Position numbers and translations under genes: made by a program. From assembly GCA_000004985.1 (NCBI GenBank), contig GG738849.1: a stretch of DNA of 64,000 nt. One strand, written 5' to 3'. Of this stretch, positions 60,227 through 64,000 are shown piece by piece. The notes beneath the pieces were generated by a model. The model searched no databases. It was not told the DNA's origin and was given only the letters and a program-made list of their open reading frames with translations. Source of the DNA: Naegleria gruberi. Its lineage: Eukaryota. Position 1 is the first letter of the stretch. Each line of letters opens with the position of its first letter.

Positions 60227-61676
60227 ATGTTACCATCATCAAGAACAGAACCTTTAACAGAATTACAAAGAAAGGCAATTATTCCTGTTCGTTCCGATAT
60301 TGCAACAAGTGCATCGGAAGATTATGAAAAGGGATGGAGAAATTTGGAACAATATGTTGATGAAGTTATTTCATTTAGTTCTAGTTATAGGTTTGTTTTG
60401 TAATTATGAATCATTTGAATTTAATTTTTCAAAATCAGTGGGCAATCAGGTGGTAGTTATGGACCTGATAATTTGAAAGGAAAACCAAAAACATATCCAA
60501 GACATCAAAGTTCTGGAGCATCATGGTGTCCTCAAACTGTAAATTCTAATCAAGTAAGTAATGAGAACTAACAATAATAATTGAACTTTTTAATTGCAGC
60601 ATGTTATTGTAAAATTCCATCATCCAGTTTATGTAAATGAAGTACACATTTATGAGACATCTTTTCCTGGATCTGTAGTCAAAATTTCATGTAAAGTAAA
60701 ACAACAAAATGAGGAAGCAGTTGTTCCTGAAAAGAAATCATTCTTAAGAAAGGCAATAGAAAAAGTTATAGGGAAGGACGGAGAGGTATGTCACTAAATT
60801 ATTTGCCATTCTCTTATTCAATTTTTTCATAATTCAATGTTGAACTCTTACAAGTGGGTTGTGTTATTTGAAAGACCTGATGCTGTATTTGTTACTGGTG
60901 CACAAGATTTTTCACCAGAACTTTCTAATAAGGGAACTTACTCTGATACTATTAGAATTGACATGAAATTGGGTGCAAATTGGAGTGAAATTGATGCCAT
61001 CAAACTTGTTGGTAAAACAAAAGTGGATTTGCCAAAAATTACTAAACTGGGAGCAATCTATAAGAAGATGTTTGATGATGCTCTCTTTACAGATTTGAAC
61101 ATTGTTCACAAACAATCAGGAAATACCCTCAGAGTTCACAAGTCAATTATGACTTCCCGATCAGAATATTTCAAAGTTATATGTGAAAGTGAAATGATTG
61201 AATCTAAAACCTCAATTATTGAATTTGAAGAAGATGTACCATTCAATACCTTTAAGGATGTCGTTGAATTTATTTACAGTAATCACATTAATATTAATCA
61301 GGAAAATATTTATCAAGTATATCTTTTAGCAGATCAATTTTTAATTGGTTCTTTATCAACTTATTGTGGAAGACTCTTCTCCACTTGGATGGATGGAGAG
61401 AATGCCTTTGAAATGGCAAGAATGGCTAAAAAGCACTGTTGCCACAAGCTCAATGAAGTGGCTTTAGAATACATTGTTGATAATTATACATTACTCTTCT
61501 TAAATCCTCAATTTGAAGATTTAGAACATGAAGATGTGATTACAATCTGTAGGAGACTTGCTGAAAGACACAACTCTAAAGATCAAGAAGCAAACCCTAA
61601 ACCAAATACCAACACCAGTGAGACTGTTAGCGAGTGTACAGAAGACCCATGCTCAGAAGAGATTTGTGATGAGTAA
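60227..61676 (+). CDS. BTB/POZ-domain protein with N-terminal DOC/APC10-like (galactose-binding fold) domain, 4 exons; exon 2 shows an apparent frame break
   Basis: Exons are 60227..60390, about 60438..60553, about 60592..60786 and about 60864..61676. Donors are GTTTGT, GTAAGT and GTATGT. WCPQTVNSNQHVIVKFHHPVYVNEVHIYETSFPGSVVKISCK resembles APC10 [44 protein letters not shown]. The BTB is LNIVHKQSGNTLRVHKSIMTSRSEYFKVICESEM...VEFIYS. Confidence 0.6.
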
Positions 61677-61689
61677 AGTTTGTAAATAT

Positions 61690-63464
61690 TTAACTATTAA
61701 TTATCTTTTCTGAAATTGTAGAAGGACAATACAGTTTAACCATTTCAGATGAAGGACACAACAAGTAAATCAATCCACTTGTGACCAATAACATGGACAA
61801 ATCAAGAGTGTTGAAATTAACAGATCTATAAAACAAGCCAATCAACACTTGACTTGCTGCATATTCAATAATAATCAAAATCATTTGTAAAAACACAAAC
61901 AGAGCAGCCACAAATATTATCATGATAGCTCTTGTAAATTTGATTTGGAATATTGACAAATTATTAGCCTTTTTCAATTGAATGAATAATTTACCACCAA
62001 ATACTGAAAAACCAACAACCAAAAAGATGGTCAAAACAACTGTCAGAATGAAAAATGTCAAATTGAATATTTTTGCTATTGAGGGTAGTCCAATATAAAT
62101 CAAAGGTAATACCAATAAGAGACCGAACGTGAGTAAGAATGTTGCTAGTATGATTTTCAAATACTTGTGAATGGTTATTGAATTTGCTCCAACAGAATTT
62201 TTGCTATTTGTTTGTAATAACAAGTTGACCCACATTACAAAAATACAAAATAGAGCTGAGAATAAGCACAGTAAACTGATAGCTCTAAAGAAACCAGATC
62301 CTATTCATTAGCAATGATGGTATTCAATTTTAAACTTTCCAATAGAAATTGAATAAACTTACCGATTGACGATTTTGCCTGAAACATTCCAACAGTTGCT
62401 AAACTTAGTAAATTTTCCAAAGCAGAGAAAATCAAATGCAACATTAGAAACACAATAATTAACCATGAAATTGAAATCACCTCTTCCAACACCGCTTTTT
62501 GAATTGGCATTAAATTATTCTTCATATTCACTTTTGCATTCTTAACATTTCTGTAAATGGTTGGAATCACCAATGTGAAAACACAAACGACCATCAATAA
62601 CAAAGTCAACACAAAGCAAATAATTGGATAAGCTCTGAAAGTGAATGGAATAAACAATGTGGAAAAGTAGTCACACTTGAAAGCATATTGCAATTGACCA
62701 CATGAACATTGCCATGGAAGAAATACGTCCTGATTCAGTAGGGAAATGCCATGAAGAAGTGGAATTTCAAGTTCTGATTCTTGATTGTAATCTAATTGAT
62801 GAACTGTAGAGGCTGTGAGTGAATCTATCGTTAGAGTTTGAAAATTATTGGGTGGTTGATTGTAATTACAAAAATTTGCACTCACAAATGTAAAGCATTG
62901 TGTAGAATTGAGTGTCGTGTGAAAAGATATAAAGTCATCTCTATTGCAGTATTGACAATAGTTGACCAAGTAGGCCAGTTCTGCAATGACTTGTCTTGTT
63001 TTTTGACTGGACGAAACATTGTAATGTTGGAGAAGATTATTCTTTACAGTGGAACTAATGTTATTGCTCTGTTCAAAACTCTTTCCAATAAGTTGGGGTA
63101 TACTATTACAAAAAAGTGAGGAACACGAATCAATGTTATATTTTGTAAAGAGTTGATTAGTCACAACAGCACTACACAGTTCTGAATATTTCGAATCAAA
63201 GAAGGGATAAAATAGAGAGAATTGAACCGTATCCTCATATCTATAATTTACAGTTGTTTCGTTTGGAATAACGATAGAAGTACATGTGAGAAGAGAGTAT
63301 TGTTGTTGTGATGATGAGGAGGAGGATGGAATGTAGATCATTGAGCAATTACTCACTCTGTTAGCTCTGGTAAGTGAAGAGTGGACGAAAGAAAGCGAAA
63401 TATTAAACAAGCAGACGATCAACAAGAGAAAGCAACAAAACACAGGTGAGCAGTGTTTTTTCAT
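61690..63464 (-). CDS. Seven-transmembrane receptor-like protein with signal peptide and Cys-containing N-terminal ectodomain, 2 exons (570 aa)
   Basis: Exons are 63464..62363 and 62300..61690; the intron runs 62301..62362 (GTAAGT..GAATAG, phase 1; 1713 nt in frame). There is a signal peptide (MKKHCSPVFCCFLLLIVCLF), an ectodomain of about 270 aa with about 18 Cys, then 7 predicted TM helices. Confidence 0.6.
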
Positions 63465-63697
63465 TCTACTGGTATCAAATGGTTCTGTTTTTTAAAAAAC
63501 TTGTTTTCTTTGTTCTTTGAAGAAGAGACAATAGATCTTGGGTTTCGCTTTGTTTATAATGCTCAAATTTCCACTTCTTTATTTGTAAATCTAGTGTCGG
63601 ATAGTTCTAAGCGGCTAGCCATATTAGTGACTGAAAGGCAGACCTTAGAAAGAATGGTTTTTATTTTAAAGTTCAAAATGGTCATGCATGGAAACAC

Positions 63698-64000
63698 TTA
63701 ATGTTGATAACCTTGTGAGAGCGGTTGGGTTAATGTTGTTTCTCCTGATGTTAATTTGTAGCTTGTTCCTAATTGATATGGATTCGATTCGGATTGACTT
63801 GAATCTTCCTCTGGTTCTACTTGCTTGTTTCTTCCACTCTTTTTGGTAATATAGTCCTGATATTTCTGTAGAGTAGCATCCTTGATACATGGACAGAATA
63901 TTTGTCTAAATTCTGCATTTGGTGTCATTTGATAAATGATACCACTAGCCAATAAACACATACTTAAATCCAATGTATTGAAATTCACACTTCTATAAAA
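63698..64000 (-). CDS. 3' exon of a paralogous 7TM receptor-like gene (continues beyond window end)
   Basis: Its C-terminus MNFNTLDLSMCLLASGIIYQMTPNAEFRQIFCPC aligns with VNFNTLDLSMLLVTSGLIYLLCPSSEMVKLYCPS of the preceding gene. The minus-strand frame stays open upstream to the window edge. Confidence 0.5.
   Translation of the reverse strand, partial: FYRSVNFNTLDLSMCLLASGIIYQMTPNAEFRQIFCPCIKDATLQKYQDYITKKSGRNKQVEPEEDSSQSESNPYQLGTSYKLTSGETTLTQPLSQGYQH

What the first reader, a model, noticed from the sequence alone, without database searches (positions are those of the whole stretch)
61690..64000. Tandemly duplicated 7TM receptor-like genes at the window edge
Gene 63464..61690 has 2 exons, a signal peptide, a Cys-rich ectodomain and 7 TM helices. 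It is followed on the same strand by the 3' end of a paralog: MNFNTLDLSMCLLASGIIYQMTPNAEFRQIFCPC aligns with VNFNTLDLSMLLVTSGLIYLLCPSSEMVKLYCPS. A head-to-tail array of receptor-like genes suggests a lineage-specific expanding family, possibly frizzled/GABA-B-like or novel, which might function in environmental or kin sensing.
Basis: partly seen in the sequence, partly recalled or inferred. Interest (0 to 1): 0.5.

Follow-up and report, generated by a model that had tools for sequence, protein, structure and literature searches.

The report
Tandem orphan 7TM receptor-like genes, Naegleria
Two neighbouring Naegleria gruberi genes encode old duplicates of an uncharacterised amoeba-specific membrane protein with a cysteine-rich outer domain and a GPCR-like seven-helix bundle, distantly related to the plant TOM1/TOM3 proteins; it is a real but fairly ordinary orphan receptor-like family.

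Summary
The window is Naegleria gruberi DNA. Gene A (63464..61690, minus strand) has two exons and a 62-nt intron. It encodes 570 aa: a signal-peptide-like N-terminus, a 12-Cys ectodomain with five NxS/T sites, and seven helices in N-out/C-in orientation. The public model (387 aa) reads into the intron and is truncated.

Gene B's last 100 codons lie 233 bp upstream on the same strand and match gene A (tblastn E 2e-10).

- No Frizzled, GABA-B or any other Pfam family matches.
- A profile comparison links TM3-TM5 to the THH1/TOM1/TOM3 (DUF1084) family (hhalign 92.8%; controls at most 1.7%). This is below Pfam's threshold.
- All named relatives come from Heterolobosea (Naegleria, Willaertia, Acrasis), with at least 3-5 paralogues per genome.
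- The A/B pair is not a recent expansion. Both types have orthologues in N. fowleri and N. lovaniensis, where they are not adjacent.

Function is inferred, not shown: probably a receptor-like 7TM protein at the surface or in endomembranes. Interest is modest.

The parts
62363..63464 (-). Gene A exon 1 (aa 1-367 plus 1 nt). Contains the signal-peptide-like N-terminus (aa 1-~29), the Cys-rich glycosylatable ectodomain (aa ~30-269), TM1, TM2 and the start of outer loop 1.
   Evidence: ORF and splice model. 100% identical to the N. gruberi predicted protein P0001. Family HMM E 5.5e-66.
62301..62362 (-). Gene A intron: 62 nt, GTAAGT...TAG, phase 1. It carries an in-frame stop if retained, which explains the truncated 387-aa public model.
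   Evidence: The intron sits at the same residue in the N. fowleri and N. lovaniensis orthologues. The Willaertia homologue is intronless.
61690..62300 (-). Gene A exon 2 (aa 368-570 plus stop). Contains TM3-TM7, a helix-8-like segment and a short 22-aa cytoplasmic tail.
   Evidence: Family HMM E 3.9e-55. AlphaFold helices.
62670..62708 (-). C-x-C-x8-C-D knot (aa 253-265, CSCGQLQYAFKCD) just before TM1. Its three Cys and the Asp are 93-98% conserved across the whole family, and the model shows a beta-hairpin here.
   Evidence: Strands at 251-254 in the model. Pfam EGF models do not match.
61969..62271 (-). TM3-TM5 core (aa 378-478), which aligns with the THH1/TOM1/TOM3 domain. Includes the invariant W391 and the TM5-end motif GFSVFGGKLFIQLKK.
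   Evidence: hhalign 92.8%, E 4e-7, with controls. Sub-threshold PF06454 hits in relatives P0019 and P0008 map to the same region.
61933..61968 (-). Cytoplasmic TM5-TM6 loop motif ANNLSIFQIKFT (aa 479-490). Eleven of its 12 residues are invariant (all but N481), the longest such stretch in the Naegleria/Willaertia subfamily. K-F-T is conserved family-wide. Candidate effector-binding site.
   Evidence: Invariant columns. Family-wide conservation.
63465..63697 (.). 233-bp spacer between gene B's stop codon and gene A's ATG. It must hold B's 3' end and A's promoter.
   Evidence: Coordinates.
63698..64000 (-). Gene B, last 100 codons plus stop: end of outer loop 3, TM7, and a long B-type cytoplasmic tail containing KYQDYITKKSG. 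The ORF is open at the window edge.
   Evidence: tblastn E 2.4e-10 against gene A. 57% identity over 91 aa to N. fowleri P0004, tail included. 29/37 identity to B-type orthologues. Family HMM E 1.1e-10.

Best explanation
SHOWN. Genes A and B are two old paralogues, now lying head to tail. They belong to an uncharacterised multigene family whose named members all come from Heterolobosea. The proteins have:
- an N-terminal hydrophobic leader;
- a ~240-aa ectodomain with 12 conserved Cys and several glycosylation sequons;
- a conserved C-x-C...C-D knot directly before TM1;
- a seven-helix bundle, predicted with high confidence, that superposes on GPCRs.
At profile level the bundle is a distant relative of the THH1/TOM1/TOM3 (DUF1084) 7TM family.

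INFERRED.
- The protein sits in the plasma membrane or in a secretory/endolysosomal membrane, with the Cys-rich domain facing outside or the lumen.
- That domain binds a ligand or partner.
- The signal passes through the bundle to the invariant cytoplasmic TM5-loop-TM6 surface (GF..FGGK...ANNLSIFQIKFT), which engages a cytoplasmic transducer. The most likely transducer is one of Naegleria's many heterotrimeric G-alpha proteins; another GTPase is the alternative.
- After duplication in the Naegleria stem lineage, A and B diverged mainly in the C-terminal tail. B keeps a long tail with KYQDY-x-KKSG and A has a 22-aa tail, which suggests different regulation or trafficking.
For: - Gene model and topology.
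- Family and taxonomic range: the exhaustive profile search found 72 representatives at E<=1e-3. All named true members (the one other named hit, a plant NLR, is a false positive) are from N. gruberi, N. fowleri, N. lovaniensis, Willaertia magna or Acrasis kona.
- No curated family: Pfam, NCBIfam and PDB sequence searches were negative.
- TOM1 link:
  - PF06454 hits at 20.2 bits (P0019) and 14.5 bits (P0008) fall on the same profile region.
  - hhalign of the family against a validated PF06454 sequence gives 92.8%, score 54.2. Controls scored 16-22: reversed sequence, 30 shuffles, bovine rhodopsin and beta-2 adrenergic receptor.
  - The link survives removal of the two bridging members, and HMMER gives 32.4 bits.
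- Duplication age.
- Signalling context: heteroloboseans have most GPCR-pathway components, and N. gruberi has a lineage-specific G-alpha expansion (PMC3971589).
Against: - Nothing tests function, localisation or G-protein coupling.
- Gene A alone, and the close subfamily alone, show only a weak TOM1 signal (hhalign 4.3%). No family member reaches Pfam's 25-bit cutoff.
- The confident TOM1 alignment covers TM3-TM5 only. The colinear TM1-TM7 extension has low confidence.
- Arabidopsis TOM1 itself did not bind G-alpha in split-ubiquitin assays (PMC2530877), and it works in endomembrane complexes with the small GTPase ARL8 (PMC3234234).
- Class A motifs (DRY, NPxxY) are absent.
- Foldseek E-values are weak (best 7.5e-3).
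- The signal peptide was not checked with a predictor.
- Gene B is seen only as a 100-codon end.
Confidence: 0.6

Rival explanations
1. TOM1-like endomembrane scaffold. The protein sits in lysosomal, vacuolar or phagosomal membranes with the Cys-rich domain in the lumen. It organises membrane complexes with small Arf-like GTPases such as ARL8, rather than acting as a surface GPCR.
For: - The only detectable sequence relatives outside the family are THH1/TOM1/TOM3 proteins.
- TOM1 co-purifies with ARL8 (PMC3234234).
- TOM1 did not bind G-alpha GPA1 (PMC2530877).
- B-type tails carry conserved Tyr-containing motifs that could act as sorting signals.
Against: - TOM1/TOM3 lack a large Cys-rich ectodomain, so this architecture looks more like a ligand-binding receptor.
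- The homology is remote and says little about partners.
- The related plant protein At3g59090 (Cand3/5) did bind GPA1.
Confidence: 0.27
2. One reading: a Frizzled-like (class F) or GABA-B-like (class C) receptor.
For: - The layout is superficially similar: signal peptide, Cys-rich N-terminal domain, 7TM.
Against: - No Fz, Frizzled, 7tm_3 or ANF_receptor hit in gene A or in 58 relatives at E<=5.
- The profile search of PDB sequences found no GPCR.
- Class A receptors outrank class C, and no Frizzled is in the top 60.
- The C-terminal tail has no KTxxxW motif.
Confidence: 0.03
3. A recent, lineage-specific tandem expansion still in progress in N. gruberi.
For: - Two adjacent same-strand copies.
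- The window ends inside gene B, so more copies could lie further to the right.
Against: - A and B each have closer orthologues in N. fowleri and N. lovaniensis than they are to each other.
- A- and B-type proteins are only about 45-50% identical.
- No third copy lies in the other 61.7 kb of the window.
Confidence: 0.05
4. Gene B is a decaying relic or pseudogene, and only gene A is functional.
For: Only the last 100 codons can be seen. No N. gruberi protein for gene B was recovered in the searches.
Against: - The visible ORF is intact up to its stop codon.
- It keeps 78% identity to B-type orthologues across TM7.
- It also keeps the B-specific tail motif KYQDYI-x-KKSG.
Confidence: 0.08

Closest known systems
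THH1/TOM1/TOM3 domain family (Pfam PF06454, formerly DUF1084): plant 7TM tobamovirus-multiplication proteins and candidate plant GPCRs
   Same: - Seven helices, N-out.
- Profile-level similarity over TM3-TM5: hhalign 92.8% and HMMER 32.4 bits.
- A shared Trp in TM3.
- A shared TM5-end motif: GF-x-x-[YF]-G-G-[KR]-L-F-x-x-L-[KR]-[KR].
- A colinear, low-confidence alignment over all seven helices.
   Different: - Gene A does not hit PF06454. The best family member scores 20.2 bits against a 25-bit cutoff.
- This family adds a ~240-aa Cys-rich ectodomain and a C-x-C...C-D knot, which the 293-aa TOM1-like comparison sequence has no room for: its 7TM domain starts at residue 23.
- It has its own invariant TM5-TM6 loop motif, ANNLSIFQIKFT.
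- Its named members are from Heterolobosea, not plants.
Class A (rhodopsin-like) GPCRs
   Different: - Only 6-12% identity.
- No 7tm_1 hit, and no DRY, CWxP or NPxxY motifs.
- Profile against bovine rhodopsin or beta-2 adrenergic receptor scores at background level.
- G-protein coupling is untested.
Frizzled / class F and GABA-B / class C receptors
   Different: No Fz CRD, Frizzled 7TM, Venus-flytrap or 7tm_3 signature. These classes are no closer structurally than class A.

Membership tests
THH1/TOM1/TOM3 (PF06454) | Score at or above Pfam's gathering cutoff (25 bits) for the domain model | tested here: not met
   Gene A has no hit. Of 58 relatives, only P0019 (20.2 bits, E 4.2e-4) and P0008 (14.5 bits) hit, both below the cutoff.
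THH1/TOM1/TOM3 (PF06454) | Remote homology by profile comparison, above matched controls | tested here: met
   hhalign of A3 against a sequence validated as PF06454 (474 bits) gives 92.8%, E 4e-7, score 54.2. The reversed sequence, 30 shuffles, bovine rhodopsin and beta-2 adrenergic receptor score 10-22. HMMER gives 32.4 bits. The confident alignment covers TM3-TM5 only.
THH1/TOM1/TOM3 (PF06454) | Seven-pass topology with the N-terminus outside | tested here: met
THH1/TOM1/TOM3 (PF06454) | Association with ARL8 or viral replicase; endomembrane localisation | not testable with these tools
   Known for plant TOM1 only (PMC3234234).
G-protein-coupled receptors (functional definition) | GPCR-type 7TM fold | tested here: met
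G-protein-coupled receptors (functional definition) | Binds and activates a heterotrimeric G protein | not testable with these tools
   The only support is context: heteroloboseans have the pathway components and N. gruberi has an expanded G-alpha set (PMC3971589).
Class A rhodopsin-like GPCR | 7tm_1 profile match and the DRY/NPxxY motifs | tested here: not met
   No Pfam hit. The motifs are absent from the sequence. hhalign against rhodopsin gives 1.2%.
Frizzled / class F | Fz cysteine-rich domain (PF01392), Frizzled 7TM (PF01534) and a C-terminal KTxxxW motif | tested here: not met
GABA-B / class C | Venus-flytrap ligand-binding domain (ANF_receptor) and 7tm_3 | tested here: not met
   No Pfam hits. 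The modelled ectodomain is a small beta sheet, a helical bundle and a hairpin.
EGF-like domain | Match to the EGF profile or pattern | tested here: inconclusive
   The C-x-C...C-D Cys are 95-98% conserved. The strict spacing C-x-C-x5-G-x2-C (PROSITE EGF_1, quoted from memory) fits only 6 of 58 members, and gene A has Ala in place of Gly. No Pfam EGF hit.
Tandem gene array | Two or more adjacent same-strand paralogues | tested here: met
   Two copies lie 233 bp apart. Whether there are more than two cannot be told, because the window ends inside gene B.

The most novel reading that the evidence does not exclude
The heterolobosean family is an ancient, ectodomain-bearing branch of the TOM1/TOM3 7TM superfamily, and it works as a genuine ligand-gated surface receptor coupled to Naegleria's expanded G-alpha set. 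If so, the TOM1 family would not be plant-specific. It would go back to the common ancestor of plants and heteroloboseans (near the root of eukaryotes), and this branch would offer the first experimental handle on the unknown native function of TOM1-type proteins.
Probability: 0.2. Interest if true: 0.55.

Novelty: new variant of a known kind. Interest (0 to 1): 0.33.

Why it matters
- It corrects a truncated public gene model: 387 aa should be 570 aa.
- It defines a 7TM family with no Pfam model that earlier, Pfam-based surveys of protist GPCRs would have missed.
- It gives a tentative evolutionary bridge between a heterolobosean receptor-like family and the plant TOM1/TOM3 virus-susceptibility proteins, whose normal cellular role is unknown.
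- For Naegleria biology, which includes the pathogen N. fowleri with both A and B orthologues, these are candidate surface or endolysosomal sensors.

Lineage-restricted orphan 7TM families are common in protists and nothing here implies an unusual mechanism, so the importance is modest.

Tried and rejected
- Word-indexed protein searches, with a single sequence and with two alignments, returned only the same five proteins. The third search was wasted.
- Extending the N. gruberi sequence past base 64000 failed. P0001 and P0004 are not in the contig index.
- The first AlphaFold run used 5 sequences and was poor (pLDDT 51.6). It was superseded by the 58-sequence model.
- The AFDB fold libraries were unavailable. 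The isolated ectodomain could not be searched, so its fold class is unknown.
- Synteny: tblastx of the N. fowleri and N. lovaniensis loci against the window matched only the gene itself.
- Considered and rejected: a TMEM8/CREST-type hydrolase (EGF-like motif plus 7TM). The family lacks conserved His/Asp metal-binding motifs (H412 is the only invariant His within the seven-helix region), and all fold hits are GPCRs.
- P0070, a plant NLR, is a repeat-driven false positive in the profile search.
- A literature search on the locus tags found nothing. The Acrasis genome paper discusses a different GPCR.
Full report
**Source and gene model**

The window is AT-rich eukaryotic DNA, about 33% GC. The unspliced ORF 62301..63464(-) is 100% identical to a 387-aa 'predicted protein [Naegleria gruberi]' (P0001), so the window is N. 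gruberi nuclear DNA.

- Exon 1 is 63464..62363, the intron is 62362..62301 (62 nt, GTAAGT...TAG) and exon 2 is 62300..61690. Together they give a 1713-nt frame of 570 aa.
- The public protein simply reads into the intron until it meets a stop.
- The junction ...KSSIG|SGFFRA... lies in a block conserved in homologues from N. lovaniensis (P0002), N. fowleri (P0003, P0004) and Willaertia magna (P0005).
- tblastn shows an intron at the same residue in the N. fowleri and N. lovaniensis genes.
- The Willaertia gene is intronless and colinear across the junction.

**Protein anatomy**

- The N-terminus (MKKH + hydrophobic stretch + ...FVHS|S) looks like a cleavable signal peptide. This is a judgement by eye; no predictor was available.
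- Residues ~30-269 form an ectodomain with 12 Cys, 11 of them invariant in the close subfamily, and five N-x-S/T sequons.
- The ectodomain ends in a C-x-C-x8-C-D knot directly before TM1. Those three Cys and the Asp are 93-98% conserved across 58 relatives.
- The knot resembles the last three cysteines of an EGF-like domain. The strict EGF spacing fits only 6 of 58 members and no Pfam EGF model matches, so this is a resemblance and not a domain assignment.
- Seven hydrophobic helices follow. Kyte-Doolittle scores are 2.5-3.2 for TM1-TM6 and 1.57 for TM7.
- K+R residues number 12 on the predicted cytoplasmic side against 3 on the outer loops, which fits an N-out/C-in orientation.

**The paralogue**

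The ORF 64000..63698(-) is open at the window edge.
- It matches the C-terminus of gene A at 62% over 37 aa (tblastn E 2.4e-10) and the family HMM at E 1.1e-10.
- It lies 233 bp upstream of gene A on the same strand, so the two genes are head to tail.
- A six-frame HMM scan found no other family member in the rest of the window.
- The sequence beyond base 64000 could not be obtained.

**Age of the duplication**

- Gene B's fragment is 57% identical over 91 aa to N. fowleri P0004. The match includes the cytoplasmic tail motif KYQDYI-x-KKSG, which gene A and its orthologues lack.
- Over the TM7 core, B matches the B-type proteins (P0004, P0006) at 29/37 residues but gene A at only 22/37.
- In a neighbour-joining analysis of 445 columns with 200 bootstraps, gene A groups with N. 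fowleri P0003 and N. lovaniensis P0002 (98%), and P0004 + P0006 form the B clade (100%).
- Naegleria A+B group to the exclusion of Willaertia P0005 (80%), and all six form one subfamily (100%).
- The duplication therefore happened in the Naegleria stem, before N. gruberi split from N. fowleri + N. lovaniensis. It is not a recent expansion.
- In N. lovaniensis, A and B lie on different contigs.
- In N. fowleri and N. lovaniensis no second copy lies within 10 kb of A, and none lies within 10 kb of P0005 in Willaertia.
- The simplest history is an ancestral tandem duplication kept adjacent in N. gruberi and separated in the other lineage. This history is inferred.

**The family**

- No Pfam family matches gene A or its close relatives.
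- A profile search of PDB sequences found no GPCR and nothing significant.
- NCBIfam gave only noise.
- The exhaustive HMMER search of 1.84 billion representatives found 72 proteins at E<=1e-3, 39 of them at E<=1e-10.
- Thirty of these were looked up. Apart from one false-positive plant NLR (P0070), every named one is heterolobosean:
  - N. gruberi: also P0032, NAEGRDRAFT_74133.
  - N. fowleri: P0003, P0004 and P0028 (P0003/P0004 named).
  - N. lovaniensis: P0002, P0006, P0025 and P0041 (P0002 named).
  - Willaertia magna: P0005, P0013, P0024, P0042 and P0048 (P0005 named).
  - Acrasis kona: P0021, P0051 and P0107.
- The remaining hits are unnamed metagenome proteins.
- The family is therefore a lineage-restricted multigene family with at least 3-5 paralogues per genome.

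**Fold**

- With only 5 sequences AlphaFold was poor (pLDDT 51.6).
- With the 58-sequence alignment it gave pLDDT 86.1 and pTM 0.85. The model shows a small beta sheet, a helical bundle and a hairpin in the ectodomain, then seven long helices and a helix-8-like segment.
- Those hits are mostly class A receptors. A GABA-B subunit appears at rank 47 and no Frizzled appears.
- Foldseek agreed on the kind of hit but only weakly: best E 7.5e-3, TM-score about 0.5 on the target.
- The GPCR-type fold is therefore supported, on a predicted structure, without special affinity to class F or class C.

**Closest sequence relatives**

- Scanning all 58 members against Pfam at a permissive threshold showed one recurring family, THH1/TOM1/TOM3 (PF06454, formerly DUF1084).
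- P0019 hits at E 4.2e-4 and 20.2 bits, and P0008 at E 0.024. Both are below the 25-bit cutoff.
- Both hits fall on the same part of the Pfam profile (positions 54-186 of 273). They map to gene A residues ~337-479.
Whatever its exact fidelity to Arabidopsis TOM1, it is a valid member of PF06454: 474 bits, E 1.5e-142, covering profile positions 3-273.
- hhalign of the family alignment against it gave 92.8% probability, E 4e-7 and score 54.2, aligning gene A 378-478 with TOM1 115-205.
- Control scores:
  - reversed sequence: 16.1;
  - 30 shuffles: at most 22.0;
  - bovine rhodopsin: 21.3;
  - beta-2 adrenergic receptor: 15.4.
- The signal survives removal of P0008 and P0019 (92.2%). HMMER gives 32.4 bits.
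- The signal is weak when only the close subfamily is used (4.3%). A greedy extension of the alignment is colinear over all seven helices, at low confidence.
- Shared motifs are a Trp in TM3 and, at the end of TM5, GFLLYGGRLFFMLRR (TOM1) against GFSVFGGKLFIQLKK (gene A).
- I conclude that the family is a distant relative of the TOM1/TOM3 family, but not a member by the curated criterion.
- From memory, Pfam places PF06454 in the GPCR_A clan, which would fit the fold result. I could not check this.

**Mechanism**

What is shown is the architecture, the predicted fold, the conservation pattern, the remote homology and the duplication history. The rest is inferred.
- The Cys-rich, glycosylatable domain faces the outside or an organelle lumen and is the likely binding module.
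- The longest near-invariant stretch in the subfamily is the cytoplasmic TM5-TM6 loop, ANNLSIFQIKFT; 11 of its 12 residues are invariant, and K-F-T is conserved family-wide. In GPCRs this is the surface that contacts the transducer.
- Heteroloboseans have most GPCR-pathway components, and N. gruberi has a lineage-specific G-alpha expansion (PMC3971589). Coupling to a heterotrimeric G protein is therefore the most natural guess.
- The main rival comes from the TOM1 relationship. Plant TOM1 is a seven-pass endomembrane protein that co-purifies with the small GTPase ARL8 (PMC3234234). It did not bind G-alpha GPA1, although the weakly related At3g59090 did (PMC2530877).
- A lysosomal or phagosomal scaffold role is therefore a serious alternative for a phagotrophic amoeba.
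- The A and B copies differ most in the C-terminal tail, which points to divergence in regulation or trafficking.

**Verdict**

This is a previously undescribed variant of a known kind, a GPCR-fold 7TM protein remotely related to TOM1 with a new Cys-rich ectodomain. It is of modest interest.

Noticed in passing
window 62301-63464 (-): The public N. gruberi protein for gene A (P0001, 387 aa) is a truncated model. It reads through the 62-nt intron to an in-frame stop and so loses five of the seven helices.
   Followed up: yes
window 60837-61676 (+) and 61677-61689: A convergent BTB + BACK domain ORF (Pfam E 5e-17 and 6e-6) ends only 13 bp from gene A's stop codon, so the 3' ends of the two transcripts probably overlap. 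Upstream ORFs at 60594-60797 look like further exons of the same gene.
   Followed up: partly
P0007 (metagenome, 314 aa) and P0020/P0101 (metagenome fragments): An environmental homologue ends in ...KSSIGKYFHFE, which is read-through at the same intron position as gene A. The intron therefore seems conserved in uncultured Naegleria-like organisms. P0020/P0101 carry the B-type tail motif.
   Followed up: partly
L001 10001-12034 (N. fowleri) and P0016: The annotated N. fowleri A-type protein (P0003) starts at MVLAFPIWKNCS, without a signal peptide, so its start codon is probably mis-called. P0016 is a separate 120-aa record identical to its C-terminus.
   Followed up: no
Acrasis kona homologues P0021, P0051, P0107: These family members carry misleading automatic names ('Serpentine receptor class gamma', 'abcG14', 'Sfmbt'). 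The family alignment and the Pfam scans do not support those names.
   Followed up: partly
C-terminal tails of B-type proteins (gene B, window 63698-63880; P0004, P0006, P0005, P0020): Besides KYQDYI-x-KKSG, the long tails share a conserved Tyr in an acidic/Ser-rich stretch (GTSYKLT / AAYSFV / TAYSYI / TAYTLD) and most have another Tyr near the C-terminus. These may be sorting or phosphorylation motifs. Gene A has lost the tail.
   Followed up: no
L003 10001-11692 (Willaertia magna): The Willaertia homologue P0005 is intronless, whereas the Naegleria A-type genes share one intron. The intron was either gained in the Naegleria lineage or lost in Willaertia.
   Followed up: partly
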